Counted from the stretch's first letter, positions 18,275-63,063 are shown. The stretch is 64,000 nt of DNA from an uncultured Gammaproteobacteria bacterium (GCA_964492735.1 CAZBLE010000003.1:6279-70278), one strand, 5' to 3'. Notes: generated by a model from the letters alone, not told the origin. Program-made: numbers and translations.

Positions 18275-18714
18275 GGGAACTCCAGAGCTCGCACGCAGCG
18301 AGTTCATGGGTGGAACGAGACTGCAAACGGCACTATGCCATCGCAATCATTCTCTCTATCATCCAAATACCCCACGACAAAAATGCAATTACTGCATCGC
18401 TGTCCTGAGGCCTCTGGATGATAGAGACGAAACTAGATGAAAAATTCAATTTTCAAAGAATGCAAAAAATTCCAAGTTGGAACTTGCACTACTTACTATA
18501 TCCCATATTTTGACAAAAAAGTCAAGCATTTTTTGGCTAACCTCTGTTGATATTTTCTTAATACGAAAAAGGCCAGAAATACGCAGATGCACGGGGAGCT
18601 GGTCGCTCGCAGTTGTACAAAAGCCTATTCCTGGCGTGCCGAGAGACTCTCGGTAACTTACCTCAATCAGCCTGACTGACATTTCCGCCGTTATCAGCCG
18701 GGCCGATTTTTTTC

Positions 18715-22107: not shown

Positions 22108-24174
22108 TTACTCTTGAGTGCCTTTTGCGAGGCGGAGCATTTGACGATATTCAGCTGGCGTAATCTGTGTTGCCCTCTGCATTTGCGCATTCGCTGTTCC
22201 ATCCGTTGATAGAGCAGCTTGTAAATCAATACCCATCGCTTCAATTAATCGCGGTGTTAAACGATGTGACAAAAATCCGGCCCCACGATGACGCACTTGA
22301 ACATCACCATACTCGTCATCTGCTGCTGCGGGTTTTAATGAAAATGATAATGGACCAATTTCAATTTCAGCATGCAATCCTTTTGAAACCATGTCATCTA
22401 GCGCATCTTCAATTGCTGAAAGTTGTCGCGCGGGGTTGAGTGTCTCAACTTTCGCACGAGGCTGCTCGATTGCTACTCGCTCATCAATAACCTCATCTTC
22501 ATCTTCCGTTTTTTTTGCAACGAGCTGCTCACTATTTTGCTCCTCCGGATTTTTTGGAGAGCGCTCTGTTGTTGCTGCTGGTGCTGGTGGAACATCGGGA
22601 ACGAGAGCTTGAGTAGTACGCACATCCGGCGCTACTTGTGCGCTTGGCTCAGCTGTCTGTGACGCTCCTTCAACAGCGGGCGCTTCTGGTGTTGTTGATT
22701 TTTTTGGTGCTTCCATTGCTTGGTGCACAGCAACTCCTTCTGAAGAGGTAAAATGCATTACACTCGCCAGCTCAGTTGGCGACAATACATGACTTGCATC
22801 TCCTGTATAAAACTGGACATTTTCAATAGTTCCGTCTGCAGCTTCGGTTACAATCATTCCAAGCTCTCCTCCTTTTGCGTCAACAAAGACATTAGCAAGC
22901 GTTCTTGTTTCTGCACCGATTGTCACTGGTAATTGCAATGCTGCCTTAATAGCAGCTATTTCATATCCTGCTCCAATTATTGCTTGAGACACACCTTCAC
23001 CTTTCTGAATCCATACCTTACTGACATCTGGCGTCGCTTCTTGCTCTTGCTGAACTGCTTCAACGCTTTCATCCGCAATAGTAGTTTCTGGAATAACTGG
23101 AGCACTCTCTGCAGGCATGACCTCTGACAGAGTTATTTCTGACTGAACTATTTGTGTGCTGGCTGTATTCTCAACTGCTTGTTGTTGTACTGCGGCTTCA
23201 ACGCGCCCTTGATCTTGATCACCTTGAAATGCTGCCGCTAACCCAAGTGCCATACCAAAACGACGCAATGCTTTTCCAAACCAACTTGTTTGTTTTTTTG
23301 ACTGCTCTGGCATTCGCAGTGGTGGTTTTTTATCAGAAGGTGCGGGCGCATTTTTTGCTGCTTCACGTGCAGCAACCTGAGCCGCAACATCGGCTTGTGC
23401 AATTTTTAAATTTTCTCGTGGAGTGCGACCATCTCGTGGACCGGAAGTTTCTGTTACTTGTTCAAGTGGTTGAGTTGGCTCATCTTCAAGATTATAAGGA
23501 TCATTACTTGATATGCGCGTTGGCTCATCATCGTCAGCCAAAGACGATGCATCTAGCGCATCATCTTTCGGCAAATCAGGAGCTACTGGCAACTCATCAA
23601 AATAATCTGAGACATTACTAAAACCTGTATCAACGGGAGCTTTTTCAGGAGTGCGTGACTCTTTCATTGGCTCATCATCAGCATCTAAATCTGCAAGCCA
23701 CTCCGTCCATTGCTGTTCAGCTTGTTTGGCTTTTTGGCCAACATCAACAAAACCTTCTGTGGTTTGATCGAATCCAGCGTCATTCAGGTGATCTTCTGGG
23801 TCAAAACCCTTTTGAGCCTCTCTCTTTTTTCGATCTTTTTCAGTACTTACTGCTATATCTCTTGCCTTTTGATCTAACTCAGGATCTTGCCGAAGCTCTT
23901 CTAACATACTGCGCCAGTCAGCAACACTAAAGACATCCACCTTTGGCGCTTTATCAGAAAATGATGGTGATTCCTCTGCTTTTACTGCAGCACGTAAATC
24001 ATCAATAGAGTGCATTGCTGTTTCGTCATATTGCGCCTGCACAACTGGTACGCCTGCTTCTTGTGCAACATCTAAACGCTCCTGCTCAGCTTCAAAATCA
24101 CGCCGTTTTTGACGAAGCGCATCTGTATCTATGAGGCCTCTTTTTTTTGACCTTGGAGGGTTATCGTATGACAT
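22108..24174 (-). CDS. acidic, low-complexity (intrinsically disordered) protein, paralog of 24233..25714
   Basis: 688 aa, rich in E, D, Q, A and P. Shares an ADW motif and a TSWFGKALRRFGMALGLAAA amphipathic/hydrophobic segment with the neighbouring gene. Confidence 0.6.
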   Translation of the reverse strand: MSYDNPPRSKKRGLIDTDALRQKRRDFEAEQERLDVAQEAGVPVVQAQYDETAMHSIDDLRAAVKAEESPSFSDKAPKVDVFSVADWRSMLEELRQDPELDQKARDIAVSTEKDRKKREAQKGFDPEDHLNDAGFDQTTEGFVDVGQKAKQAEQQWTEWLADLDADDEPMKESRTPEKAPVDTGFSNVSDYFDELPVAPDLPKDDALDASSLADDDEPTRISSNDPYNLEDEPTQPLEQVTETSGPRDGRTPRENLKIAQADVAAQVAAREAAKNAPAPSDKKPPLRMPEQSKKQTSWFGKALRRFGMALGLAAAFQGDQDQGRVEAAVQQQAVENTASTQIVQSEITLSEVMPAESAPVIPETTIADESVEAVQQEQEATPDVSKVWIQKGEGVSQAIIGAGYEIAAIKAALQLPVTIGAETRTLANVFVDAKGGELGMIVTEAADGTIENVQFYTGDASHVLSPTELASVMHFTSSEGVAVHQAMEAPKKSTTPEAPAVEGASQTAEPSAQVAPDVRTTQALVPDVPPAPAATTERSPKNPEEQNSEQLVAKKTEDEDEVIDERVAIEQPRAKVETLNPARQLSAIEDALDDMVSKGLHAEIEIGPLSFSLKPAAADDEYGDVQVRHRGAGFLSHRLTPRLIEAMGIDLQAALSTDGTANAQMQRATQITPAEYRQMLRLAKGTQE

Positions 24175-24232: not shown

Positions 24233-25714
24233 TTAGCGCGTATAATGTGGTTGTCGGCTCAAATCTTTTCCAAGTGTTGATACGTCTTCAGGAGTCAGTG
24301 AGCGAAAATCTTTTTCTCCTGGAAATCGTGCCACAATATCACCACTCGCGGATTGGCGTAATTCTAAACGCTTCGTTGGACTTAAGCGGATAAATACTTT
24401 TGATGAATCAAGACTCTCAAATAAACTTTTGACATAATCAATTTGTTTTTCAGGAGAAAGCGTACTCTTACTCATTTCAGCATTAAGTTGTTTGGCTACA
24501 TCAGCTGGTGCGACTGGCGCTTCTGCAACGGGTGTCACTGTTTTTGGTGCTTCCACATCAACGCTTGCGGGAGCAACGGGAACTGGAGGCATTGCCGGCT
24601 CTATCTGCATAGGTCGCACATCTTCTTCAGTAGCAACTACTGTCTGTTGCGCGGGTTGCTTTGAATCATTTCTGTAACGAACTGCAACTGGTAAATTATC
24701 TGGCGGCGGCGCAACAACGCGCTGAGATGGCACGCGTTCAGATGAACGGGGCTGTTGGACAGGGGTGGTAGGCACAGTAGGTGTAGCAACCTCCACTCGT
24801 GGAACAACAATAGTTGGCCGATCAGGCGCTGGTGCAGCTTGCGGTTTCTCAACCACATAAGTACTTGTTGCTTCTTGTGGGGTTTGGTTGGTTGGCACAG
24901 CCAGCGCTGCAACAAGACCAAGTCTGCGGCCCCAGCGCGTTAATGTATCAAGTGCGGCTTGTGCCTTTTTTCCAAACCAACTCGTAGCCGGCGGCTCTGG
25001 AACAACAGTAATTGTTTCTGTTCTTGGAGCAGCAGTGCGAGGGGTGCGTGTAAGATTTCTAATATCGCTAATACTTCCTGGTACAATTGGCTCGAGGGAT
25101 GCGGGTGCTGCATCGGCCTGTTGTTTTCGTGAAGACGTACGCTCAACAATTGGTGCTTGAGGGGGATGAGATACTTCATCTGAACCTGCTACATCTTCAG
25201 CAAAATTACCCATTGCAGAAGCATCCCAAAAAGGTTTATCTGTAGGCAAATTCCGTTCTAATGAGAATGGTGTATCTGCTGTCGCGGGATCATCTGTATA
25301 AAAAGAAGGTCGAAACAACTCTTCATCCTCAGACTCGCCTTCTAATGAGACCGGACCTGTATCTACATCATCTGGAATAGGCTGAATTGGATCTGGAAGA
25401 TCATTTATTAGATCCACTCGATCTCCAACTTGAGCTGCTCGCCCTGCAGCCTCTTGTCCAGCATACACTCGCGCAGCTACTTGCTCTGCCCGACGCGGAT
25501 CTTGAACAGCACCTCGAGCACGATCCAACATTGCTGTGTCATCATGCGTATCACTTGGTGTTGTCGGTACTTGTGCTTTACCGTCAACGACTGTTGGCTG
25601 GTTCCACACTTCATCTAAACGACCCCAATCTGCATGCGTTAAATCAGCTGTATCTGGTACCTTTTCTTGCGCAGGCTTTACCGCTTGCGCTCGCGGTCGT
25701 TCTGGATTACTCAT
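24233..25714 (-). CDS. acidic Pro/Ala-rich low-complexity protein, paralog of 22108..24174
   Basis: 493 aa. N-terminal ADW motif and TSWFGKKAQAALDTLTRWGRRLGLVAALAVP segment aligned with the neighbouring paralog. Confidence 0.6.
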   Translation of the reverse strand: MSNPERPRAQAVKPAQEKVPDTADLTHADWGRLDEVWNQPTVVDGKAQVPTTPSDTHDDTAMLDRARGAVQDPRRAEQVAARVYAGQEAAGRAAQVGDRVDLINDLPDPIQPIPDDVDTGPVSLEGESEDEELFRPSFYTDDPATADTPFSLERNLPTDKPFWDASAMGNFAEDVAGSDEVSHPPQAPIVERTSSRKQQADAAPASLEPIVPGSISDIRNLTRTPRTAAPRTETITVVPEPPATSWFGKKAQAALDTLTRWGRRLGLVAALAVPTNQTPQEATSTYVVEKPQAAPAPDRPTIVVPRVEVATPTVPTTPVQQPRSSERVPSQRVVAPPPDNLPVAVRYRNDSKQPAQQTVVATEEDVRPMQIEPAMPPVPVAPASVDVEAPKTVTPVAEAPVAPADVAKQLNAEMSKSTLSPEKQIDYVKSLFESLDSSKVFIRLSPTKRLELRQSASGDIVARFPGEKDFRSLTPEDVSTLGKDLSRQPHYTR

Positions 25715-25798: not shown

Positions 25799-27436
25799 TT
25801 ACACCAATCCTGCAAGATGGCGTTTACGATAAAACCCAATGGCAAATCGATGCGCTTCGTCACGCATGCGTTGCATTAAATACAGCCCTTGCGAATCACG
25901 CGGCAATAAAATCGGAGTAGAATTTTCTGGCAAGAATATTTCTTCAATGCGCTTGGCAAGTGAAATAATCGGAATATCCAAATGCGCGACATCGAGCATG
26001 GCTTTCGCGGATGACAACTGCCCTTTTCCTCCATCAATCACAATCAAACTTGGCGTTGGCCATGGATCAGCGATCTCTTTTTGTTTCCGCTTAATGTGTT
26101 TTACACGCCGGTTGATAACTTCGCGCATTGATGCGAAATCGTCCGACTTCCCTGTTCCACGCGCGCTGCGAATTTTGAATTTGCGATATTCACTCGGCGC
26201 TGGCCGGCCGTCAATAAACACAATCATTGAAGCGACCGTGTACGCTCCTTGATTATGCGAAATGTCATAGACTTCAATCCGGTGTAATTTTTCTGGCGTC
26301 GTCTCCAAAGCAGCGGCAAGCTCGGCAAGGGCTTTTTTTGCACGGGTGTCTTCTTTTTCAAATCGCGCCAAATGCTGCTCTAAGGCTTGCAACGCGTTCG
26401 CCTCTCCCATTTCTAGCAACTGTTTATTTTTCCCACGCCGCTCTTGCCGATTGGTCATGATGTCTTTTGGTTTTTCCAAGGCGGCTTGATAATACTGATC
26501 TTGAAACGCTTCTAACACATCGTCATCTGATTGATCTTTCACGTGTCGCAACAAAAAAACATTTTGCGCAATCAACCGACCATGGCGAACGATAAATACA
26601 TTGACCGCAGCAGTGTCATCAACGCGCGCAAGCGACAACACATCAACAGACTGCTCGCGAACATCAACCACTTTTTGATCAAAAAATAATCGATCAAGCG
26701 CTTGCAGTTGATCGCGTATAGTTGCTGCTTTTTCAAACCGCTTTGCTTCACTTGCCTGTCGCATTTGTTGTTGCAAATCGGCAATCACTGCGTCTGTCTC
26801 ACCAGACAGCATCCGCGCCATATCACGAAATAACGCTTGATACTCCTCTTGCGAAATAGCCTGCGCGCACGGCCCGATGCACCGTCCCAGTTGATATTGC
26901 AAACACGGGCGCTTTGGATAGACCACAACTCCACGCTTCACTTCTGGCGGTGTTGTGCAATATCGAAATACTGTTTGCATTGTCCGCAACGTTTTTTTCA
27001 CCGCAAACCCTGAAACATACGGCCCAAAATATTTCCCACGACGTGTTCCGAGGCGTGGCAACTGCCGCACTGTTTCAATGCGCGGAAATGGGTCGTCAGT
27101 GATATGAATATATTGAAAATTTTTGTCATCTTTCATGACAATGTTATAGGGCGGTTTGTGTTTTTTAATGAGCGTTGTTTCGAGTAGCAATGCTTCGGCC
27201 TCCGTGTCGACCGTGATTGTTTTGATATCCGCAATTTTGCCAACCATGAACTGCTTGGCTGGTGAATGATTTGTGCTCGAGCGAAAATACGACTGCACGC
27301 GTGATCGCAACTTCACCGCTTTGCCGACATACAACAGCTTTCCAGCTGCATCAAAAAACTGATACACCCCTGGCTTCATTGGCAAGTCTTGCACCTGTTT
27401 TGCGATTGTATCCACTGATTGCTCTGTGTCCATAGT
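25799..27436 (-). CDS. uvrC: excinuclease ABC subunit C
   Basis: GIY-YIG N-terminus (PGVYQFFDAAGKLLYVGKA) and full-length UvrC-like body. Start placed at MDTEQ (27436). The longest ORF extends to 27505. Confidence 0.9.
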   Translation of the reverse strand, partial: TMDTEQSVDTIAKQVQDLPMKPGVYQFFDAAGKLLYVGKAVKLRSRVQSYFRSSTNHSPAKQFMVGKIADIKTITVDTEAEALLLETTLIKKHKPPYNIVMKDDKNFQYIHITDDPFPRIETVRQLPRLGTRRGKYFGPYVSGFAVKKTLRTMQTVFRYCTTPPEVKRGVVVYPKRPCLQYQLGRCIGPCAQAISQEEYQALFRDMARMLSGETDAVIADLQQQMRQASEAKRFEKAATIRDQLQALDRLFFDQKVVDVREQSVDVLSLARVDDTAAVNVFIVRHGRLIAQNVFLLRHVKDQSDDDVLEAFQDQYYQAALEKPKDIMTNRQERRGKNKQLLEMGEANALQALEQHLARFEKEDTRAKKALAELAAALETTPEKLHRIEVYDISHNQGAYTVASMIVFIDGRPAPSEYRKFKIRSARGTGKSDDFASMREVINRRVKHIKRKQKEIADPWPTPSLIVIDGGKGQLSSAKAMLDVAHLDIPIISLAKRIEEIFLPENSTPILLPRDSQGLYLMQRMRDEAHRFAIGFYRKRHLAGLV

Positions 27437-27526
27437 GTATATATATGGTAGTGCGGCATATTTTGCAATAAAAAAATAGAGGGTGATAGAAATAAGACAT
27501 TCCACTCACCCTCGTATTTTTGTTGT

Positions 27527-29131
27527 TTATTGCGCTTCCATGGCACGACCCGTTTCTTTGGCTGCTTCAAAGATAGACGTCGTAAGAGCTTTCCAATGTT
27601 CCTGGCTGAAGAAATTTGGATCTGGATGCTCAATCTGCTCAGCGATTAACACTTCCATCGTATCCGTCACTTCATCATTCACTGACTGGATTGTTTTGAC
27701 CACTTGATTTTTGGTCGTATCCACAACAACGGTTGTACGAACAGCATCTGGCTGATCTGTATATCGATAGACAACGGTCATAAGCGCTCCATCCGTCACT
27801 TGAGATTCCACAACTCCATAATTACGAAATTGATCAATATACCGCTCTGGACTGAGTGCCCATTTCTGCATATTGGTCTCCCAATTTTTATCAGCACCTT
27901 GAAGCGCATCAGCTTGATAGTCCAGAATTAACTGATCATTAAACGCTTGCACCTCTTCAGCGGTGAGTGCTGTGACTGTATTTGTTTCAAGATCATAATG
28001 ATAGACATCGGATCGCATAACAGTTTCAAACGTTGCTTCAGAAAAATTTCCTTGTCCAAGCTCGACAATTTTTTCATAAGACAACTGAACTAAAAATTGG
28101 GTTTCACGAGCAATATTTTCTGGTTCATTCGGCAGCGTTTCCATATTGCGGGTGCTTCCAAAATTTCCAATAACCGCAAACTGATTTTCATACCCTTCTG
28201 TCGTTTTCTTATTTGCAACAACATCTTCTGGATGCAATTGCGGATTAAAGAGAAATGGCTTCCAATGCGTTTTGTCGCGCGTTGTTGGCTTGTCTGTTAG
28301 TGTATTATAGGTATTTGTCCATACTCGAAGACGTGGCATGATTGTTCCAACTGGCTCGACCTCTCCGTGTGATAGAGCTTCTGGCATTTCTGGCAACGGT
28401 GCCGATGTTGTGACTGACAATGTTTTCACTGGGCCATCATATCCTTCATGTTCAATAACCATTGGCTTCATCACTGTAATTTTTTCACCTATCAGAGCTG
28501 GCGTACGTGCTGCAACATTCACATCAACGCGATTACATGCAACTGCCATATCTGTCACGTGCGCATCATCAAAGAAACAATTTTCAGAAGTTTGCGCATT
28601 CATGACATGATTCAGGGTTGATACAATTCCTGCATATGGCTCTCCATTGAGCGGCTGCGTACGAATACTCATCATACCCACGAGTGGTTGACTCCACGTT
28701 TCAACAACTTGATTTCCATCCCATTGCTTTGAGATTGTTGTATAGTTAATTTTCATATGACGAATCGCTTGAGCGGATGTTCCAAATGTATTGGTAATAG
28801 AATCCGCAACAACTGACTCGGCTGATTGGTTTGTGATATTTGCAATTGGTGAATTGGTTCGTGCAAATTTTTGACCTGCCTGCTGAATAGCGAGTGGTCC
28901 ACCTGCGAGAACAAATACTAACGCTCCAACAGCAAGTGCGCTGGCTGGAATCAGTAATCGCAACCACCGACGGCGATATGTTGATGTGTGCATAGAATAT
29001 ATCTGATAAGTTCGATACGCTTGAATTGTTGCATAACGCAATTCTTCAGTGTGGTCTGTGCGCTCTGGAATCGGAACAGCCCGCAATAGCTGCTCGAGTG
29101 ATTCTTCAAATTGTGATGGTGAGTGTTTCAT
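27527..29131 (-). CDS. membrane-anchored anti-sigma-factor-like protein with large extracytoplasmic domain
   Basis: 534 aa. Single TM helix (LLIPASALAVGALVFVLAGG) after a ~60-aa cytoplasmic N-terminus. Lies immediately downstream of an ECF sigma gene. Paralogous to 29800..31395 (shared C-terminal NPxxFFSxxxWK). Confidence 0.6.
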   Translation of the reverse strand: MKHSPSQFEESLEQLLRAVPIPERTDHTEELRYATIQAYRTYQIYSMHTSTYRRRWLRLLIPASALAVGALVFVLAGGPLAIQQAGQKFARTNSPIANITNQSAESVVADSITNTFGTSAQAIRHMKINYTTISKQWDGNQVVETWSQPLVGMMSIRTQPLNGEPYAGIVSTLNHVMNAQTSENCFFDDAHVTDMAVACNRVDVNVAARTPALIGEKITVMKPMVIEHEGYDGPVKTLSVTTSAPLPEMPEALSHGEVEPVGTIMPRLRVWTNTYNTLTDKPTTRDKTHWKPFLFNPQLHPEDVVANKKTTEGYENQFAVIGNFGSTRNMETLPNEPENIARETQFLVQLSYEKIVELGQGNFSEATFETVMRSDVYHYDLETNTVTALTAEEVQAFNDQLILDYQADALQGADKNWETNMQKWALSPERYIDQFRNYGVVESQVTDGALMTVVYRYTDQPDAVRTTVVVDTTKNQVVKTIQSVNDEVTDTMEVLIAEQIEHPDPNFFSQEHWKALTTSIFEAAKETGRAMEAQ

Positions 29132-29137
29132 AAAAAG

Positions 29138-29647
29138 TTACACAATTGATTGAACAGACTGAACACTGTTTTTTAAACGCTTGATCGCCTGACTCAACAT
29201 GCTACTGACTGTTTTTTGATCAATGTCGAGCATCTCCGCAATTTCCACATTTGAAAAATCGGATTGGTATCGCAGCAAAAGAACCTCGCGCTGACGGTCA
29301 GTCAGGCTCCCAAGATGCTGTTGCAGCATTTCCAGATTCATCGCCGTGTCGAGCGCAATGTCTGGCATCTCTGCTGTATCAGCGACATCATAATCCGCGA
29401 TATCGTCTGTTTGCTTTTGTGTGCGGTAGTGGTCGATGACTGTATTGCGCGCAATGGTGTACATCCATTTACGAAATGCCAGCTCGTCATTTTTTGGCGC
29501 AAGAGCGTCATAATGGCGAACGACTTTTTCAAAAATCGCAGATACCAAATCTTCGGTTGTTTCCATGTGACTCACACGCAAATACACAAAACGATAAATC
29601 GGTTTATGATACGTGTCGAATAGCGCGGCGATTTGTTCAAGCGTCAT
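29138..29647 (-). CDS. RNA polymerase ECF-type sigma-70 factor
   Basis: 169 aa. Sigma-70 region 2 (PIYRFVYLRV, IARNTVIDHYR) and region 4 HTH (DRQREVLLLRY...IAEMLDIDQKTVSS). Confidence 0.85.
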   Translation of the reverse strand: MTLEQIAALFDTYHKPIYRFVYLRVSHMETTEDLVSAIFEKVVRHYDALAPKNDELAFRKWMYTIARNTVIDHYRTQKQTDDIADYDVADTAEMPDIALDTAMNLEMLQQHLGSLTDRQREVLLLRYQSDFSNVEIAEMLDIDQKTVSSMLSQAIKRLKNSVQSVQSIV

Positions 29648-29799
29648 GCTGATAGATTAATTATGTGAAGCATACTCTGCAGAGTACAACGTGTCACGAT
29701 AAACATGACTACACAGACTACGACGACCGAGCAGCGAAAGTACGTATGACTATCAAAAAAGCCCCTATTTCAGGGCTTTTTTATGTGGTATTCGTATCT

Positions 29800-31395
29800 T
29801 TAGTCCTTGATAATCTCCTTGGCACGCTCTTTCCATGCCTTCTCAGAAAAAAACGTGTCTGGATTATCTGTTGTTGTTTTGAGCGCGTCGAATGTTGTGG
29901 TGTAGATTGTTGCTTGCTGTGTATTTGGATAATCATACCGCTCAATAATTGCCGTCAATAACTGAGTCTGACTATCAACACGCACTTCTGTTGTTCCAAT
30001 CATGTGCATCGATGGATTATCCGCATTCCACTCTTGGGTCACGCTATACACATATTCAGTTCCTTCAATGCGTGGCGTGACAGTATGGAGTTGCGCAAAC
30101 ACAGCAGATCCGCCAGCAATGTAATTGAAGAACGTCTCTCCTGAATTACTGGTAAAAATCTCTTTTCGTACTGCTAAGCGTCGTGCATTAAACTGCTCGA
30201 TATCTTCAGGTGTTTGAGTAAGCGGATGCACACTCTCAAATCGCCATTCATCAGAAAATTTCATTTGAAACACTTGAGATGCAGCAGAAAATAATTTTGA
30301 ATCATACTGCTTTTCTTGAACTGTTGTTGCTCCAAGAAGCGCTGTGTTGAGCTGCACAATTTGTAGTTGTACTTCAGAAAAAATACGTACCGGATTTTGT
30401 GTCGCCTCTGTTAACGTATCATGCGCATAACGCCCATCCAACATGAATGCAAATGATTGTTTATACCGACCATTCACTGGAACGTTCCACTCAGGATCTG
30501 CAATTCCTCCAGAGACATTTCCAAGTGGAGATAATGCAATTGGAGCAAAGGCAATATTATTTTGCGCATCAATAAACTCAGAAAGATATTTCACATAAGA
30601 CGGTTCAGCGATCAGAATGCCGAGATTGCTTGGGTCAATCGGCACTGCAGTTGTAAATGACATCTGCTCACTATCAAGGTCTGTATTATATGAAAAGTCT
30701 TGAATATCAAGTGGTGGTTGTTTTTCTGCGAAACCAACATAATCTGCAATACCACCTGAGTCACAGACATGCTCATTCGTAGCTAAATCTTCATTTGCAC
30801 TTTTTATTGATTGTGCATTGTGCATATCAACGCCGATGACACAATTTTCAATTGATTGCGCGTCAGCGTTCAAGTTTGTCATACGATACCTCTTTTCTTC
30901 TTGGACACTTGGTCCTGTTTTGCGCAGGTATCCAGTGAATGCGTGTTGTGCAATATAATATTCCTGATCCGTCCGCGCCGTAACTTCTTTTACTTCTGAC
31001 TGATTACCATTTGTATTCATGTCTTCACGAACCGTATGAAACACAACATGACGAATACCATCGGTAGTAGAAAAAGTGTGTTGAATTGATTCTGCAATAA
31101 GTTCTTGCGGAACAATGGATTCAATAATTGAATTCGTATTGTTCGTACGTGCTGCAAACTCACTGCGGAGCGCTGGGCTACCAACTGTAATCACACCAAT
31201 CGCAACAGCAGCCAAAGCAAATCCTGGCACTGCGAACCGAGAAACAAACCGACGTAGTCTCTGGCGCTGCGTAGTCGCCTCTTCTGTTGCAGACTCGAAC
31301 ATTCGAGCTTGGATAGCCGCTCTGTGAGCGTCGTGCTCTGGTACTGCTACACGCGCAAACATATCTTTTAATTGTTCTTCTGGTAAACGTTTCAT
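29800..31395 (-). CDS. membrane-anchored anti-sigma-factor-like protein, paralog of 27527..29131
   Basis: 531 aa. TM helix (FAVPGFALAAVAIGVITVG). Overlaps the upstream sigma gene by 4 nt. C-terminal conserved motif DNPDTFFSEKAWK. Confidence 0.6.
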   Translation of the reverse strand: MKRLPEEQLKDMFARVAVPEHDAHRAAIQARMFESATEEATTQRQRLRRFVSRFAVPGFALAAVAIGVITVGSPALRSEFAARTNNTNSIIESIVPQELIAESIQHTFSTTDGIRHVVFHTVREDMNTNGNQSEVKEVTARTDQEYYIAQHAFTGYLRKTGPSVQEEKRYRMTNLNADAQSIENCVIGVDMHNAQSIKSANEDLATNEHVCDSGGIADYVGFAEKQPPLDIQDFSYNTDLDSEQMSFTTAVPIDPSNLGILIAEPSYVKYLSEFIDAQNNIAFAPIALSPLGNVSGGIADPEWNVPVNGRYKQSFAFMLDGRYAHDTLTEATQNPVRIFSEVQLQIVQLNTALLGATTVQEKQYDSKLFSAASQVFQMKFSDEWRFESVHPLTQTPEDIEQFNARRLAVRKEIFTSNSGETFFNYIAGGSAVFAQLHTVTPRIEGTEYVYSVTQEWNADNPSMHMIGTTEVRVDSQTQLLTAIIERYDYPNTQQATIYTTTFDALKTTTDNPDTFFSEKAWKERAKEIIKD

Positions 31396-31901
31396 ATGGT
31401 TGTTGAAAAATGATTGCGAAGTTTATGAATAGCTTTTGAGATAGTTGATGCAACGGCCTTTTGGTCAATTCCCATTACAGAGGCAATTTCAGTATTTGTC
31501 AGATCTGCTTCAAGGCGTAATAACACACATTCTTTTTGACGATCTGGAAGCAGCGCGATGGCTTCGTGGACCTGTTCGAGTGAAAGCGTGTGGTCAACAA
31601 TTGCGTCTGGAAGTGGCTCTGTATCGATGATGGCAAGATCTTCAATTGGTGTATCGCTGTGCGGTCGATTGGCTTGCTTGCGATAATGATCAATGAGCGT
31701 GTTCCGCGCGATCGCGAAAATCCACGATTTTTCTGTCGCTCCAGGTTGCTGTTTGAAGCGCGGAAAATGTTTGATGACTTTTTCAAAAATATGTGAAACC
31801 AAGTCTTCAGCTGTCTGTTTGTGGCCCACGCGAAAATAGACGAAGCGGTAGACCGGCTCGTAATATGTTTGGAACAAGATCATTAATTCATGTTGAGACA
31901 T
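31392..31901 (-). CDS. RNA polymerase ECF-type sigma-70 factor (second copy)
   Basis: 169 aa, ~50 % identical to 29138..29647 (PVYRFVYFRV, IARNTLIDHYRKQ, DRQKECVLLRL...IASVMGIDQKAVAS). Confidence 0.85.
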   Translation of the reverse strand: MSQHELMILFQTYYEPVYRFVYFRVGHKQTAEDLVSHIFEKVIKHFPRFKQQPGATEKSWIFAIARNTLIDHYRKQANRPHSDTPIEDLAIIDTEPLPDAIVDHTLSLEQVHEAIALLPDRQKECVLLRLEADLTNTEIASVMGIDQKAVASTISKAIHKLRNHFSTTI

Positions 31902-32142
31902 AGGATATGTGTGCAGCGCACATGACTGATAACGACAAGTTGCGCAGAATACGTCAAAGGGAGTTTATGAGAGGCGTTATCCGTTACAAAATACATTTTT
32001 TTTGAGTGATTGTAATAACCAAAATGTGCCGCGTGATGCATTCCTTGGGAGAATATGCAAAACGCGACACCGAAGGCGGCCTCAAACAGCTGAACGATGT
32101 GATGTCGTTGTGACATCGCTCAGGTGTGAGGCAAAGGCCTTC

Positions 32143-33129
32143 TTAGAGCGGGGTCAATGCCGCGGGCACGGACCAGGGCCCGTTGCGGGTCGCCTGGGTG
32201 CTACCCCACAGGGTGGGGAGACCGGAGGCCGGGTCCACGTGGAACCCAATGGCCCACGGGGTGGTCGTGTAGTCGTACTCGAGGACGTCACCGGAACCCC
32301 CGGGCTCCCAGCAGTATGGCGTGTAGTGCCGGGTATGCTGGAAGTCTCCCAGATCGTAGACATCGACCCAGCAGATCTGGGCGCCTGCCGCCCCGGACTG
32401 GAGTGAAATGTCAGGAACTCCCCACGGGCGGCGGATCTCAAGACCCGTGCTGCGGTCGTAGGTGTAGCTGTGGGGGTACGGCGCCGTCACCATGACCGTG
32501 ACGGAAAAGTCAGTCATCACAACACGCGCCGCCGGGCTTGATGCGCCGGTGACGGGGTTGAACGTGACCGGACCAGGGCCCGTTCCGGGCTCATGGCAGT
32601 CGATCGTGATGTTTCCCGGCGCACCAGGCTGCTTAGCTGCGATGCAGAGCTCGTCGCCCATCGCGTCTGCCGCGTAGGTGACGCCAGGGGCGTTGGCTTC
32701 GATCGCCCAGCCGGAGCCCGGGCCGGTTCCAGGGATCCAGGTCCGCACGACGCCGCGCCCGGTCTCGAGCGCGGTAATGAAGCCGCCCCCGAGCGCAAAG
32801 GACTCAAGCGTGACGCCAACCGGCGCCGAGATCGTAGACCAGGTTCCATTGCTGGCGCGGCAGCGGATGGCGAGGCCATCCGTCTGCAGGCCGCAGAGGA
32901 AGTTACCCTCCACAGAGACCTCGTTCAGGGTAGGCGCCCCTGCGGGCACCGTCCAAGCCGGGGTCGCCGAGGTGGACAACAGGGGCTGCACCGCAGGCCC
33001 AGTCTGCAGCACCCAGGTGCCGGACAGGGGCTCGAAGATCGCCGGAGACTCCGCCCTCGCGGGTGAACCTCCGAACAGCAGAGCCGCGGCGAAAAACGCC
33101 GCAGCCACCAAAACCGAGATGTGCTTCAT
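32143..33129 (-). CDS. GC-rich secreted Gly/Pro/Thr-rich protein, hypothetical (foreign gene)
   Basis: 328 aa and ~66 % GC. Signal peptide MKHISVLVAAAFFAAALLFGGSPARA. No recognised domain. Confidence 0.6.
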   Translation of the reverse strand: MKHISVLVAAAFFAAALLFGGSPARAESPAIFEPLSGTWVLQTGPAVQPLLSTSATPAWTVPAGAPTLNEVSVEGNFLCGLQTDGLAIRCRASNGTWSTISAPVGVTLESFALGGGFITALETGRGVVRTWIPGTGPGSGWAIEANAPGVTYAADAMGDELCIAAKQPGAPGNITIDCHEPGTGPGPVTFNPVTGASSPAARVVMTDFSVTVMVTAPYPHSYTYDRSTGLEIRRPWGVPDISLQSGAAGAQICWVDVYDLGDFQHTRHYTPYCWEPGGSGDVLEYDYTTTPWAIGFHVDPASGLPTLWGSTQATRNGPWSVPAALTPL

Positions 33130-33365
33130 CTTGACCTCAATGTCTTTTATTTAGGCTGGCAGACTCACCAGTAAGACTTTTTTCAAAACGTATCAATGAA
33201 CAAAAAAGCACCACAATGGTGCATAAAACGGACAAAAATGTAGCTCAAAATAGGTAAAATGTCAAGCAATGGCGCATTATCCTTATAATAGAAAAAATGG
33301 ACGAATCCTGCATAGGCATTGTCAGTCACCGTTAGTCGCAGATTAGGCTGTACTTGCCCTTTACG

Positions 33366-33415
33366 ACCCGAAGCTGCGGGGTAGCTTCTCCACGTCTTTG
33401 CGATAAAGCACGTGG
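33366..33415. other. pair of adjacent GC-rich stem-loops in the 452-nt divergent intergenic region upstream of uvrA (possible structured RNA or regulatory element)
   Basis: GAAGCT-gcggggt-AGCTTC at 33370..33388 and CCACGTCTTT-gcgat-AAAGcACGTGG at 33390..33415. Confidence 0.25.
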
Positions 33416-33581
33416 CGTCCCGACACTGACACGCTATCATCAGAATTCGCCCGAGGCATACTGTCTACTGTATTTTATAAAAAAATGCAAGCCCCTGCGC
33501 TCCTGCCCATGGTTGACCAACCCCAAAAAAGCGAGTATTCTACAACACTACTTTCACTTATTACACATCTCATTTACACCC

Positions 33582-36431
33582 ATGGCAAAACCTACCCAGA
33601 ACGCACTTATCATCCGCGGCGCACGTGTCCACAATCTGAAAAATATCGACGTTGAAATTCCTCGTGACACCTTAACTGTCCTCACTGGCCTGTCTGGTTC
33701 TGGAAAATCATCCCTCGCTTTTGACACGATCTATGCAGAAGGACAACGCCGCTACGTTGAATCACTCTCTGCCTATGCGCGTCAATTCCTCGGCCTCATG
33801 GACAAACCAGATGTTGACCAAATTGATGGACTCTCCCCTGCGATTTCTATTGACCAAAAAACCGCGTCACACAATCCTCGTTCAACTGTCGGAACTGTCA
33901 CAGAAATTTATGATTACCTGCGCCTGCTCTATGCACGCATTGGTGTGCCTCATTGCCCAAACTGCGGAAAAGTTGTCAGCAAACAAACTGTGCAACAAAT
34001 GCTGAAACAAGTCCTCACTATTCCCCATGGCACAAAAATCTACATTCTCGGACCAATCGTTCGCGACAAAAAAGGTGAACATAAAGCCGTGTTCGAACAA
34101 GCGCGCAAATCTGGCTACGCTCGCCTGCGGATTGATGGCATTCTCTACACTGTCGATGAAGCACTTGACCTCAATCTCGACAAACAAAAAAAACACAACA
34201 TCGATATTGTGATTGATCGTTTAGTTATTGAAGCCGGCATTGATAAACAGCGCGTGTTAGAATCGATGGAAACAGCACTCAACCTCGGTGATGGCTTGAT
34301 GATGATTCACAATGTGACAACAGAAGAAGATATTATTTTTTCTGAACAATTTGCCTGTCATGATTGTGGTATTTCCCTTCAAGAAATTGAACCACGCAAT
34401 TTTTCGTTTAACTCACCGCATGGTGCCTGTGAACGTTGCACGGGCCTTGGCACAAAACTCGAAGTCGATGTTGATCTGATTATTCCCAACAAACGCCTGA
34501 GCATTGCAGAAGGAGCCATTCGTCCATGGAATCGAACCACCGGCTCACAAACCTGGATGATGCGTATTCTTGAAGCAGTTGCACGCAAGCACGGTTTTTC
34601 AACTCTCACGCCTGTGAAAGACCTCACAAAAAAACAACTGGAGATTGTACTGTATGGTAGCGGGGCTGAAAGCTACGACGTCAATGCAGGTGAAGGCTCT
34701 GGGAAAGTGCGGGAATTTTTAACGACCTATGAAGGTGTCATTCCAAATCTTGAACGTCGCTACAAAGAAACTGAATCCGACTACATGCGTTCAGACATTG
34801 AACGCTACATGCGTATTTTTAACTGTCCAGCCTGTGATGGTCGCCGGTTAAAACCAGAAGCGCTGAGTGTAACAGTTACAGGACTCAATATTGCAGAAGC
34901 AACAGCTCTGACTATTGAAGAAGGTGTTACATTTTTTAGCAATCTCGATCTCAATAAAAAAGAAGCTGAAATTGCCAAGCAGATTTTAAAAGAAGTCTGT
35001 GAGCGATTATCATTTTTGAATAATGTTGGCTTGTCGTATTTAACGCTCAATCGCGGTGCGTCGACACTCTCTGGTGGTGAAGCGCAGCGCATTCGCCTCG
35101 CAACCCAAATCGGTAGCTCATTGGTTGGCGTGCTCTATATTTTAGATGAACCGTCAATTGGACTTCATCAACGCGATAATGATCGCTTGATCACAACACT
35201 CAAAAAATTGCGAGACCTTGGCAATACAGTGATTGTCGTTGAGCATGATGAAGACACGATTCGCGCTGCTGATTATGTTGTCGACATTGGACCAGGAGCC
35301 GGAAAGCACGGTGGCACAGTTGTCGCTGCTGGAACACCTGAACAAGTAGCAAAAAATCCAAAGTCAATTACCGGCAAATACCTCTCAGGAAAAGAATCTA
35401 TTGCTGTTCCAAAAAAACGTCGTAAAGGCAATGGGAAAAAACTTTCAGTCATTGGCGCGACAGAAAATAACCTGCGAGAAGTTGATATGCACATTCCGCT
35501 TGGCACACTTACCTGCGTGACTGGTGTGTCTGGCTCTGGAAAATCAACGCTCGTGACTGATATTCTCGCAAACAGCTTGAACCAACATTATTACAATGCA
35601 AAGGAACTTCCGGGAAAACACAAAGAAATTCAAGGACTCGACCATCTCAATAAAGTGATTAATATCGACCAGTCCCCAATTGGCCGCACACCGCGCTCAA
35701 ATCCTGCAACCTACACAGGTGTGTTCACATTAATCCGCGATTTATTTGCAGAGCTCCCAGAAAGTAAAATGCGTGGCTATAAGGCCGGACGTTTTTCATT
35801 TAACGTCAAAGGTGGTCGCTGCGAAGCCTGTCAGGGCGATGGTGTGATCCGGATTGAAATGCATTTCTTGCCAGATGTGTATGTTGAATGTGATGAATGT
35901 CATGGAAAGCGTTACAACAAACAAGCGCTCGAAATTTTCTACAAGCAAAAAACGATTGCTGATGTGTTGCAGATGACCATTGAAGAAGCAGCGAATTTTT
36001 TTGCAAACATTCCTGCAATTCACAAAAAACTGGTGACACTGAATGAAGTCGGTTTGTCATACATTCAACTTGGGCAAAATGCCACAACATTATCTGGTGG
36101 TGAAGCCCAGCGTGTAAAACTTGCAACAGAACTGTCACGCCGTGCAACAGGAAAAACACTCTATATTCTTGATGAGCCAACAACTGGCTTGCACTTTGCG
36201 GATGTAAAACGGTTGCTTGCTGTCTTGCAAGAACTCGTTGATCGCGGCAATAGCGTCCTTGTTATTGAGCATAGTCTTGATGTGATTAAATGTGCTGACT
36301 GGATTATTGACCTTGGCCCTGAAGGTGGAAACAAAGGTGGTCAAATTATTGCAACCGGAACACCCGAAGATGTTGTAAAAGTGAAGAGTAGTTACACTGG
36401 TCAATATCTTGCACCGTTGCTGAAAAAATAA
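33582..36431 (+). CDS. uvrA: excinuclease ABC subunit A
   Basis: Two ABC ATPase modules ([18 protein letters not shown]; LSGGEAQR twice) and zinc-finger cysteines. Start placed at [10 protein letters not shown] (33582), downstream of TTGACC-17-TATTCT. The longest ORF starts at 33354. Confidence 0.95.
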
Positions 36432-62700: not shown

Positions 62701-63063
62701 GCCCAAAAAGACTTCTTGCTCTTTCATTTCTTTTGATCGTTTGTTAACGAGTTTTGTATTTACGCGCAACGCTGCTTCGAATGTTAAATTCTTGGCTTTT
62801 GCTGTCACTTCATCAAAACGCGGTTCATCGAGGTAATAGTCGAGGAATTGCAACTCAAGATCACGATCAGAAAAATCGGTAATCGGAGTGATTTCATCAA
62901 ATAATTCTCGGAGACCCTTTTCAAGGAACCAATCATATGATGCCTTTTGTGATTCAATGAGATTTGGCATCTCAGTTTTTTCACGTTGGTCTGTAAAATA
63001 AAGGCGACCTGTCACCTCGTCTGTGTGGACGGCTGTGGTAGCCACTTGCGCTTGTTTGGGCAT
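59707..63063 (-). CDS. rpoB: DNA-directed RNA polymerase subunit beta
   Basis: 1118 aa. Conserved beta-subunit blocks throughout. Immediately upstream of rpoC. Confidence 0.97.
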   Translation of the reverse strand: MPKQAQVATTAVHTDEVTGRLYFTDQREKTEMPNLIESQKASYDWFLEKGLRELFDEITPITDFSDRDLELQFLDYYLDEPRFDEVTAKAKNLTFEAALRVNTKLVNKRSKEMKEQEVFLGDFPLMTDRGTFIINGIERVVVSQLIRSAGVFFTSNFLKGNFYYGAKIIPNRGAWLEVETNHDNVIYVKVDRKRKVAITALLRAFGYSSDEEIMELFKDVDTHPHNQYIAATLEKDTSRNEAEGLKEVYKRIRPGDLATVDNARSLIHAMFFNFDRYDFGRVGRYKLNKRFGFTDVENIPENRVLRREDIVAIISEIIRLNNSQEQPDDIDHLGNRRIRAVGELVQNKFRIGLSRMERIVKDRMSTKDVETLTPGVLINARPVIGAVKEFFMSSQLSQFMDQTNPLAELEHKRRLNAMGPGGLSRERAGFEVRDVHRTHYGRICPIETPEGPNIGLVGHMSSFARINDFGFLETPFRKVVKEADGRMRVTDDIVYLDSFEEEKSTTTAATTQIDADGYFLVEKAEVRHHMQPTIMDVTEIDYMDVSPKQIISISTALIPFLEHNDAVRALMGTNMQRQAVPTIKPQAPIVGTGVELRAAKDSGQVAVATEDGVVEHVQANKVTIKEKSGGYKEYHLKSFQRSNASTSINQKPIVSVGQKIKKGDILADGASTQGGELAIGQNVVVAYMPWEGGNYEDAILLSERLVQKDRYTSIHIEDYTIDVRDTKLGPEVITRDIPNVSEEKLKNLDENGIIRVGAQVGSGDILVGKITPKGETELSAEEKLLRAIFGDKAKDVKDSSLYLSHGEHGRVVDVKIFSKENGDKLQAGVMQTIQVSIAQLRKIQVGDKMAGRHGNKGVISRIVPVEDMPYLEDGTPVDIILNPLGVVSRMNLGQILEAHLGLAAQALGYTVATPAFAGIPAETIRQELEKAGFPREGRIPLFDGRNGERFDQLVMCGVSYMLKLNHMVEDKIHQRSIGPYSLVTQQPLGGKAQFGGQRFGEMEVWALQAYGAAYTLQEMLTIKSDDVPGRSKAYESIIKSEEIQMKNVPESFNVLVRELKGLALDVELLNDEGIAIEDHDQPKRVATPETANEYSEDEGIIRVERDPGDEEPSEDELK

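What the first reader, a model, noticed from the sequence alone, without database searches (positions are those of the whole stretch)
27527..31901. Tandem duplication of an ECF sigma / membrane anti-sigma module with very large extracytoplasmic sensor domains
Two consecutive pairs are present. The 169-aa ECF sigma factors are ~50 % identical to each other. The ~530-aa single-pass anti-sigma-like proteins are paralogous and share the C-terminal NP(D)xFFSxxxWK motif, and each overlaps its upstream sigma gene. The sensor domains are ~450 aa with no recognised fold, much larger than typical anti-sigma periplasmic domains. A diverged duplicated pair suggests two related but distinct envelope signals.
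Basis: seen in the sequence. Interest (0 to 1): 0.55.

Follow-up and report, generated by a model that had tools for sequence, protein, structure and literature searches.

The report
Two tandem ECF sigma/anti-sigma sensor modules
Two neighbouring pairs of an alternative sigma factor gene and a membrane sensor gene are really there and almost certainly act as envelope-signalling switches; the type of system is ordinary, but the sensor protein family is very rare, is predicted to have a lipid-carrier-like (LolA/RseB) outer domain, and is reshuffled in blocks between close relatives.

Summary
On the minus strand lie sigma2 (31392-31901), AS2 (29800-31395), a terminator, sigma1 (29138-29647) and AS1 (27527-29131). 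The sigmas are true ECF sigmas and are 44% identical. The 531- and 534-aa proteins are single-pass, N-in membrane proteins. They are detectably paralogous only over the first ~145 residues, plus a conserved C-terminal FF..W motif. Only pair 2 overlaps (ATGA); pair 1 has a 6-nt gap.

New findings:
- A motif, GACGTAy-N13-yCGTy, occurs exactly twice in 64 kb, once upstream of each sigma gene, and recurs upstream of homologous sigma genes elsewhere. It is a likely autoregulated ECF promoter.
- Every homologue with readable upstream sequence follows an ECF sigma gene.
- AlphaFold models of both ecto-domains best match LolA/LprG/RseB/MucB-type structures, although no sequence family is matched.
- Between close relatives the modules are mosaics. 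Sigma1 with AS1 residues 1-32 is 84-95% identical while the rest of AS1 is 25%. In module 2 the sigma-4 domain, AS2 N-terminus and TM helix diverged (33-42%) while the ecto-domain is 82%.
- One relative carries a sigma2/sigma1 chimera.

Verdict: a new variant of the ECF sigma/anti-sigma kind. Anti-sigma function is inferred, not shown. Interest is moderate.

The parts
31931..31954 (-). Candidate autoregulated ECF-type promoter of module 2 (GACGTAT-N13-TCGTT); its 3' end lies 29 nt before the sigma2 ATG
   Evidence: Exact pattern hit. There are 2 hits in the window against 0.08 expected. PWM score is 25.2 against a shuffle maximum of 16.3 or less. The same motif lies upstream of sigma2-type genes in L001 and L004.
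31392..31901 (-). sigma2, an ECF sigma factor of 169 aa
   Evidence: Sigma70_r2 (E 1.1e-16) and Sigma70_r4_2 (E 7.5e-12). TIGR02937 scores 108.1 bits against a cutoff of 42.9.
29800..31395 (-). AS2, a 531-aa putative membrane anti-sigma factor. It overlaps sigma2 by 4 nt (ATGA). Cytoplasmic residues 1-53 are 31237-31395, the TM helix is about 31180-31236, and the ecto-domain is 29803-31179.
29830..29868 (-). AS2 C-terminal motif NPDTFFSEKAWK
   Evidence: The F and W are near-invariant in the 12-member family alignment.
29753..29775 (-). Intrinsic-terminator-like hairpin plus T-run immediately after the AS2 stop; it separates the two transcription units
   Evidence: Terminator scan. The same element is conserved at the same place in L001, L006 and L014.
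29722..29745 (-). Candidate autoregulated ECF-type promoter of module 1 (ATACGTAC-N13-TCGTC); its 3' end lies 74 nt before the sigma1 ATG
   Evidence: Exact pattern hit. PWM score is 36.0. The orthologous site is present in L001 (9677), L006 (324) and L014 (240).
29669..29697 (-). Sigma-70-like promoter (GTGACA-N17-TATGCT) overlapping a 14-nt palindrome TACTCTGCAGAGTA (29673-29686) in the conserved region just upstream of sigma1
   Evidence: Promoter scan. The palindrome is unique in the window. The block is conserved in L001, L006 and L014. Function is not established, and the RNA fold is not special (z -0.12).
29138..29647 (-). sigma1, an ECF sigma factor of 169 aa
   Evidence: Sigma70_r4_2 (E 1.4e-13) and Sigma70_r2 (E 1.1e-11). 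TIGR02937 scores 103.8 bits. The closest solved structure is 6dxo_A, E 1.9e-11. It is 95% identical to its L001 orthologue.
27527..29131 (-). AS1, a 534-aa putative membrane anti-sigma factor. It starts 6 nt after the sigma1 stop. Cytoplasmic residues 1-58 are 28958-29131, the TM helix is about 28901-28957, and the ecto-domain is 27530-28900.
27590..27625 (-). AS1 C-terminal motif PDPNFFSQEHWK
   Evidence: F508 and W513 are near-invariant across the family.

Best explanation
The region holds two independent, autoregulated ECF sigma/membrane anti-sigma signalling modules. They are old paralogues kept side by side.

Proposed mechanism:
1. Each sigma is co-translated with a single-pass membrane protein.
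2. The short cytoplasmic N-terminus of that protein (about 40-55 aa, two predicted helices around an invariant Pro-Glu) holds the sigma at the membrane, probably through its sigma-4 half.
3. The roughly 455-aa outer domain is built on a LolA/RseB-like open beta-barrel stabilised by a conserved Cys pair. It senses a hydrophobic envelope-derived ligand (lipid, lipoprotein or glycolipid) or a partner protein.
4. On signal the anti-sigma is inactivated, most likely by regulated proteolysis.
5. The freed sigma transcribes from GACGTAy-N13-yCGTy promoters. These include its own promoter (positive feedback) and, in relatives, promoters of small secreted Cys/Asp-rich proteins.

Shown here: gene architecture, ECF identity, conserved sigma-AS pairing, the conserved promoter motif, membrane topology by hydropathy, fold similarity of the models, and mosaic evolution.

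Inferred: sigma binding, the ligand, proteolytic release and the regulon.

In effect this resembles RseA and RseB fused into one polypeptide.
For: - ECF identity of both sigmas.
- Tight coupling: ATGA overlap in pair 2 and a 6-nt gap in pair 1.
- Every family member with readable upstream DNA follows an ECF sigma gene, including members only 17-25% identical in unrelated contexts: L005, L009 and L008, and L001, L004, L006 and L014.
- One TM helix with positive-inside charge bias, and two invariant Cys residues in the outer part.
- The promoter motif occurs twice in the window against 0.08 expected, both times upstream of a sigma gene. Nine sites across six genomes lie 26-79 nt before the start codon they precede. 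A PWM finds no other credible site in the window.
- A terminator lies between the modules.
- Recombination blocks keep the sigma-4 domain and the AS N-terminus together. In the natural chimera of L004 the sigma-2 domain is 83% like sigma2, the sigma-4 domain 88-92% like sigma1, and the partner carries the AS1-type N-terminus.
- Weak hits of the AS2 N-terminus to NCBIfam 'antisigma' NF052375 (E 0.003-0.019) and to the CU044_5270 family (E 0.0011), both far below cutoff.
Against: - No anti-sigma domain family is matched by Pfam, NCBIfam, a PDB profile search, or hhalign against RseA.
- The cytoplasmic part (38-55 aa) is shorter than class I (four-helix) or class III (RsbN, 117 aa) domains as described in PMC6101532. 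It is modelled at pLDDT below 50.
- Co-inheritance of the sigma-4 domain and the AS N-terminus could reflect only their adjacency on the DNA.
- The models have low to moderate confidence (mean pLDDT 53.7 and 65.4), were built from only 12 sequences, and share one alignment.
- Foldseek against PDB gave no meaningful match (TM 0.26 or less), and hhalign against RseB found nothing.
- The LolA-like core covers only about 160 of about 455 ecto residues.
- The -35-like element (ACGTAy) is not the canonical ECF GGAAC. The spacing to CGT is about 14 nt, against the 16-17 nt I recall as typical for ECF promoters.
- No transcription data exist.
Confidence: 0.72

Rival explanations
1. The long proteins are not anti-sigma factors. 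They are regulon members: membrane-anchored LolA-like carriers or chaperones that are simply co-transcribed with their sigma, and the N-terminus is only a membrane anchor.
For: No known anti-sigma domain is detectable. The cytoplasmic segment is very short. The LolA superfamily consists mostly of carriers (bioRxiv 10.1101/2025.01.13.632879).
Against: A pure anchor would not need a conserved cytoplasmic sequence. Here P22 is invariant, E23 is near-invariant, and the first 32 residues are 84% identical between genomes where the rest of the protein is 25%. A strict position immediately downstream of the sigma gene, with overlapping or near-overlapping reading frames, in all nine loci is the classic anti-sigma arrangement.
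Confidence: 0.12
2. The long proteins act as positive, FecR-like transducers that are needed to activate the sigma, rather than only inhibiting it.
For: The architecture is the same as in the main explanation (N-in, single pass, large outer domain). Nothing in the sequence distinguishes inhibition from activation.
Against: No FecR or other pro-sigma domain signature was found. No TonB-dependent transducer was identified among the window proteins scanned. That FecR-type systems work with such a transducer is from my own knowledge.
Confidence: 0.08
3. The pair is a recent in-situ tandem duplication that is now diverging.
For: Same gene order, same lengths (169 / about 530 aa), same promoter motif and same C-terminal motif.
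Against: Sigma identity is only 44% and AS identity 17-20%. The tandem order is shared by L001, L006 and L014, so it predates these genomes. AS2 is closer to the distant homologue P0010 (25%) than to AS1 (17%).
Confidence: 0.05
4. The sharp identity breaks between relatives are artefacts of metagenome assembly, with chimeric contigs joining strains, rather than real recombination.
For: All comparison loci are MAG or metagenome contigs, and some are short.
Against: Each ecto-domain type was recovered in two independent samples: type A in the window and ERZ4208449; type B in ERZ650281/SRR6231170 and GCA_964608475/SRR12487045; type C in the Lake Mendota MAG and SRR29782969. All reading frames are intact, and L001 and L002 are two assemblies of one sample that agree.
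Confidence: 0.05

Closest known systems
E. coli RpoE-RseA-RseB and P. aeruginosa AlgU-MucA-MucB envelope-stress systems
   Different: Here the LolA-like domain is part of the membrane protein itself, not a separate periplasmic protein. There is no sequence similarity to RseA or RseB. The cytoplasmic domain is about half the size of the class I domain. The promoter motif also differs.
Streptomyces sigma-BldN / RsbN (PDB 6DXO; class III anti-sigma domain; PMC6101532)
   Same: The closest solved sigma to sigma1 is 6dxo_A (E 1.9e-11), and the best NCBIfam model is the BldN family. RsbN is also an orphan single-pass anti-sigma factor with a large extracytoplasmic domain of unknown function (272 aa).
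   Different: Both sigmas score far below the BldN equivalog cutoff (114.8 and 133.6 bits against 206.45). RsbN has a 117-aa, three-helix cytoplasmic domain; here it is 38-55 aa. The PDB profile search with the N-terminus did not hit RsbN. That 6dxo_A is BldN rests on my recall of the entry together with the paper.
Class II anti-sigma domains (CnrY, NepR: a two-helix clamp)
   Same: A very short sigma-binding region. Two helices are predicted before the TM helix (H5-18/H25-60 in AS1, H6-15/H19-53 in AS2).
   Different: The helices are modelled at pLDDT below 50. No sequence comparison with CnrY or NepR could be run. The resemblance is one of size only.
LolA/LolB/LppX/LprG superfamily, including DUF4367-type domains found in some Gram-positive proteins
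   Same: The best structural matches of both models are 4mxt, 8cgm, 2byo, 3mh9 and 4qa8. These have a hydrophobic-ligand-binding open barrel.
   Different: No Pfam LolA, MucB_RseB or DUF4367 match for any of the 12 members. The ecto-domain is about 290 residues larger than a LolA core. That DUF4367 occurs fused to zf-HC2 anti-sigma domains is my recollection and was not tested here.

Membership tests
ECF (group 4) sigma-70 factors | Only sigma-2 and sigma-4 domains, about 170-200 aa, and a match to the ECF superfamily model | tested here: met
   Sigma70_r2 plus Sigma70_r4_2. TIGR02937 scores 103.8 and 108.1 bits against a cutoff of 42.9. Both proteins are 169 aa.
ECF (group 4) sigma-70 factors | An autoregulated promoter with conserved -35 and CGT-containing -10 elements upstream of the sigma gene | tested here: met
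   GACGTAy-N13-yCGTy occurs twice in 64 kb against 0.08 expected. It is conserved at nine sites in six genomes. This is sequence evidence only, and the -35 element is not the canonical GGAAC.
BldN family (NCBIfam TIGR02952, equivalog) | Score above the curated cutoff of 206.45 bits | tested here: not met
   114.8 bits (sigma1) and 133.6 bits (sigma2).
Membrane-bound ECF anti-sigma factors (functional class) | Gene immediately downstream of its sigma gene and translationally coupled to it, conserved across homologues | tested here: met
   ATGA overlap or a 6-nt gap in the window. The same arrangement is seen in L001 (two pairs), L004, L005, L006, L008, L009 and L014.
Membrane-bound ECF anti-sigma factors (functional class) | Single TM helix with a cytoplasmic N-terminus | tested here: met
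   One hydrophobic window per protein, with 4-5 K/R residues before it and 1-2 after it in both window proteins; the other members mostly follow the same bias. Two invariant Cys residues lie in the outer part. Based on hydropathy only; no dedicated topology predictor was run.
Membrane-bound ECF anti-sigma factors (functional class) | Physical binding to and inhibition of the cognate sigma | not testable with these tools
   Only indirect evidence exists: the AS N-terminus and the sigma-4 domain are inherited as one block.
Class I anti-sigma domain (RseA, RsiW, ChrR; with or without the zinc-binding HxxxCxxC motif) | A four-helix domain of about 80-90 aa, detectable by Pfam or NCBIfam anti-sigma models | tested here: not met
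   No Pfam hit for any of the 12 members. NF052375 reaches only E 0.003-0.019, below its cutoff. hhalign against RseA gives probability 0.4%. A PDB profile search found nothing. No His or Cys motif is present. The cytoplasmic part is 38-55 aa.
LolA/LolB/RseB/LppX superfamily | An open (unclosed) antiparallel beta-barrel fold | tested here: met
LolA/LolB/RseB/LppX superfamily | Sequence-profile membership (Pfam LolA, LolB, MucB_RseB, DUF4367, LppX_LprAFG) | tested here: not met
   No hits at E up to 10 for any member. hhalign against E. coli RseB gives probability 0.05%.
LolA/LolB/RseB/LppX superfamily | Binding of acyl chains or lipids in the barrel cavity | not testable with these tools
   Inferred from the fold only.

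The most novel reading that the evidence does not exclude
The family may be a recombination-driven 'sensor cassette' system. A highly conserved output unit (sigma1 with the first ~32 residues of AS1) is combined in different strains with at least three very different LolA-like ecto-domains: type A of 534 aa, type B of 547-551 aa and type C of 343 aa. In module 2 the opposite block is swapped (sigma-4 domain, AS N-terminus and TM helix). This would let a small-genome, uncultured bacterium retune which lipid or lipoprotein cue (for example from a host, prey or neighbour) triggers a fixed response, and rewire which sigma a given sensor controls.
Probability: 0.25. Interest if true: 0.6.

Novelty: new variant of a known kind. 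Interest (0 to 1): 0.4.

Why it matters
ECF sigma/anti-sigma pairs are the commonest bacterial transmembrane signalling devices after one- and two-component systems, so one more pair is not surprising. Three points are worth recording.

1. The partner protein family is nearly an orphan: about a dozen sequences among 15 billion proteins, with no Pfam or NCBIfam model. Its putative sigma-binding region is unusually short and unclassified.
2. It appears to combine in one chain the roles that RseA and RseB, or MucA and MucB, play as two proteins. This gives a simple model for how a LolA-fold lipid sensor could gate an anti-sigma factor.
3. The natural mosaics and the sigma2/sigma1 chimera amount to ready-made domain-swap experiments. 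They indicate which parts must stay together (the sigma-4 domain with the anti-sigma N-terminus) and which parts are free to vary (the sensor).

The conserved promoter motif makes the regulon predictable in any related genome.

Tried and rejected
- Pfam and NCBIfam scans of both long proteins and of all 12 family members found nothing significant.
- A third word-indexed homologue search, using the family profile, added no sequences.
- An exhaustive HMM search of 1.84 billion representatives found only 5 strong and 4 marginal hits. P0013 was not used further.
- A genome-contig scan with the whole-family alignment failed because no stretch was conserved enough. With the AS1-type alignment it found only 2 loci.
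- Two metagenome-contig scans gave nothing for the AS N-terminus and only unrelated ECF sigmas for sigma1, such as L010 in a peptide-maturation context.
- A profile of the N-terminus against PDB sequences gave only chance TM-helix matches.
- hhalign against E. coli RseA and RseB found no relation.
- Foldseek against PDB gave meaningless global alignments to beta-barrel porins. The afdb50 library was unavailable.
- A fused sigma-linker-AS structure prediction was considered and dropped. The tool returns no contacts or PAE and accepts only native sequences.
- Rank correlation of sigma identity against N-terminus or ecto-domain identity over 28 locus pairs did not discriminate (rho 0.63 against 0.59). 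The argument therefore rests on the specific mosaics.
- The RNA fold of the sigma1 leader is not special.
- A relaxed-motif hit inside AS1 (27773-27796) is within chance expectation and scores below the PWM reporting threshold of 12.
- Rfam and tRNA scans of the window were empty.
- Literature searches for CU044_5270, for anti-sigma with LolA-like, and for the sample accession gave nothing useful.
- The taxon could not be fixed.

Full report
**1. What is there**

The minus strand between uvrA (33354-36431, plus strand) and uvrC (25799-27505) carries, in order:
- a GC-rich 328-aa ORF (32143-33129);
- sigma2 (31392-31901, 169 aa);
- AS2 (29800-31395, 531 aa);
- sigma1 (29138-29647, 169 aa);
- AS1 (27527-29131, 534 aa).

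Both 169-aa proteins have Sigma70_r2 and Sigma70_r4_2 domains. They pass the ECF superfamily model TIGR02937 (103.8 and 108.1 bits, cutoff 42.9). Their best specific model is the BldN family, but they score far below its cutoff. They are 44% identical (E 2e-51).

AS2 overlaps sigma2 by ATGA. AS1 starts 6 nt after the sigma1 stop, and no earlier in-frame start exists.

By BLASTP, AS1 and AS2 are significantly similar only over their first 145 residues (30%, E 2e-10). The C-terminal FF..W motif aligns but is not significant on its own. In the family alignment the F and W, an A.S...T helix after the membrane segment, and two Cys residues are invariant or nearly so.

Each protein has one hydrophobic segment (about residues 59-77 and 54-72) with more K/R residues before it than after it. 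This indicates a cytoplasmic N-terminus and an outer domain of about 455 aa.

**2. How rare the long proteins are**

- Word-indexed searches of 5.8 billion clusters found 5 and 3 relatives.
- An exhaustive profile search of 1.84 billion representatives found 5 strong and 4 marginal hits.
- Three of the marginal hits (P0010-P0012) share the VPER turn, the AESI..TF helix and the NP..FF..W end, so they are true distant members.
- No Pfam or NCBIfam family is matched by any member. The only traces are sub-threshold hits of the AS2-type N-terminus to an NCBIfam 'antisigma' model and to the CU044_5270 family.

**3. The link to the sigma is conserved**

Every family member with readable upstream DNA sits directly after an ECF sigma gene.
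- L001 has both pairs between uvrA and uvrC.
- L004, L006 and L014 also carry the pairing.
- The distant members do too. L005 and L009 have a 4-nt overlap in unrelated neighbourhoods. L008 has a truncated upstream ORF that is a sigma-4 domain.

**4. Promoters**

Aligning the upstream regions revealed the motif GACGTAy-N13-yCGTy.
- The exact pattern occurs twice in the 64-kb window against 0.08 expected. The hits are at 31954-31931 and 29745-29722, both on the minus strand and both just upstream of a sigma gene.
- It recurs upstream of the sigma genes of L001 (module 2), L004, L005 and L009 (with one mismatch). In L001, L006 and L014 it also lies downstream of the terminator that follows AS2.
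- A weight matrix built from nine sites finds no other credible site in the window. The two sites score 36.0 and 25.2, the next best scores 14.4, and shuffles reach up to 16.3.
- The GC-rich gene next door has no such site.
- In L001 and L006 the same motif precedes small secreted Cys/Asp-rich proteins. These are therefore candidate regulon members.

A terminator-like hairpin (29775-29763 plus a T-run) separates the two modules, and it is conserved in relatives. Close to sigma1 there is also a conserved sigma-70-like promoter that overlaps a unique palindrome.

**5. Fold of the outer domain**

- The AlphaFold2 model of AS1 is weak (mean pLDDT 53.7). The AS2 model is better (65.4, with the ecto-domain mostly 70-87).
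- This superfamily includes the periplasmic regulators of the RpoE and AlgU anti-sigma factors (bioRxiv 10.1101/2025.01.13.632879).
- Sequence methods do not see the relationship, and Foldseek was uninformative.
- I therefore hold the fold assignment at moderate confidence. About 290 ecto residues remain unassigned.

**6. Anti-sigma status**

The cytoplasmic part is only 38-55 aa, with two predicted low-confidence helices around an invariant Pro-Glu. It matches no class I domain and not RsbN. In size it is nearest to the two-helix class II clamp described in PMC6101532. The closest solved sigma to sigma1 is 6dxo_A, then SigW and SigL.

**7. Mosaic evolution**

Window against L001. Housekeeping neighbours are 86% (UvrA) and 93% (UvrC) identical as proteins, and 74-84% as DNA.

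| Module | Conserved part | Diverged part |
|---|---|---|
| 1 | sigma1 95%; AS1 residues 1-32 84% | rest of AS1 25% |
| 2 | AS2 ecto-domain 82%; sigma-2 domain 67% | sigma2 overall 51%; sigma-4 domain 35%; AS2 cytoplasmic part 40-42%; TM helix 33% |

- In module 1 a 91%-identical DNA block (29686-29036) ends abruptly, and no DNA similarity is detectable beyond it.
- In module 2 the block that lacks DNA similarity spans about 31680-31140.
- Three ecto-domain types sit behind sigma1 genes that are about 90% identical or more. Type A is in the window and P0002. Type B is in L001 and L006. Type C (343 aa) is in L014 and L004. Each type was seen in two independent samples.
- L004 carries a single module. 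Its sigma is 83% like sigma2 in the sigma-2 domain and 88-92% like sigma1 in the sigma-4 domain. Its partner is 99.6% identical to that of L014, which has the intact tandem. L004 is therefore a recent sigma2 x sigma1 recombinant that lost AS2.
- In all these events the sigma-4 domain and the AS N-terminus stay together. That fits a binding pair, but it could also reflect their adjacency on the DNA.

**8. Verdict**

- This is an ECF sigma/anti-sigma system in duplicate, which is an ordinary kind of system.
- The non-ordinary features are an orphan anti-sigma family with a very short, unclassified cytoplasmic domain; a fused, enlarged LolA/RseB-like sensor; a conserved non-canonical promoter motif; and block-wise reshuffling between close relatives.
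- Anti-sigma function, the ligand and proteolytic release are inferred, not shown.
- The host organism is unresolved. One related 4-kb contig is labelled Bdellovibrionales. However, the window's RpoB (1118 aa) scores higher against the shorter RpoB chains in the PDB, about 1100-1270 aa, which from my recollection of the entries are from Firmicutes, cyanobacteria and actinobacteria. It scores lower against the ~1340-aa E. coli-type chains.

Noticed in passing
window 32143-33129 (-) and 16253-18346 (-): Two genes have about 67% GC and 81-82% GC3 in a genome where other genes have 27-48% GC3. One is a 328-aa secreted protein with no family match. The other is a 697-aa FG-GAP-repeat protein. They look like recent acquisitions from a high-GC donor, or assembly inserts.
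   Followed up: partly
L001 6726-7310 and 9787-10314; L006 404-967: In relatives, small secreted proteins with a GDCDD(N/S)D..RFP motif (weak Pfam MopE-like hit), about 57-58% GC and about 70% GC3, sit directly behind the same ECF-type promoter motif. One lies upstream of sigma2 and one between the AS2 terminator and sigma1. The window lacks both; it has the unrelated 328-aa GC-rich gene at the first position.
   Followed up: partly
L006 389-1036 (-) and L001 9616-10314 / 7429-8004: Public gene calls look wrong here. The L006 minus-strand 215-aa ORF is the antisense of the GC-rich secreted-protein gene. The L001 232-aa and 191-aa calls start upstream of, or within, the promoter motif, so the true starts are probably internal Met codons.
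   Followed up: partly
window 29669-29697 (-): A sigma-70-like promoter overlaps a perfect 14-nt palindrome, TACTCTGCAGAGTA, which is unique in the window. It lies in a block upstream of sigma1 that is conserved in L001, L006 and L014. It could be a basal promoter or an operator.
   Followed up: partly
window 27773-27796 (-): A relaxed match to the promoter motif (ACGGAT-N14-CGTT) lies inside the 3' part of AS1, about 270-340 nt upstream of uvrC. It is within chance expectation (3 hits against 0.52 expected for the relaxed pattern) and did not reach the PWM reporting threshold of 12.
   Followed up: yes
window 22108-24174 (-) and 24233-25714 (-): Two adjacent long proteins (688 and 493 aa) are low in complexity and rich in Pro, Ala, Glu and Gln, with no Pfam match. 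Both contain a 'SWFGK...GL.AA' hydrophobic stretch in the middle. They are possibly another paralogous membrane-protein pair, and are conserved in position downstream of uvrC in L001.
   Followed up: no
window 33208-33265 (-): Between uvrA and the GC-rich gene there is a good sigma-70-like promoter (TTGACA-N17-TACATT), followed about 15 nt later by a terminator-like hairpin. This could be a very short transcript or a regulatory leader.
   Followed up: no
window 59707-63063 (-); L004 record title: The taxonomic label 'Bdellovibrionales bacterium' on the related 4-kb MAG contig is doubtful. The window's RpoB is 1118 aa and scores highest against shorter PDB RpoB chains (8i23, 7l7b, 6wvj, 8x6f), not the ~1340-aa E. 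coli-type chains. Assigning those chains to Firmicutes is from my recollection of the entries.
   Followed up: partly
window 6370-8487 (-): The RNase J homologue carries an N-terminal extension of about 160 aa before the metallo-beta-lactamase domain.
   Followed up: no
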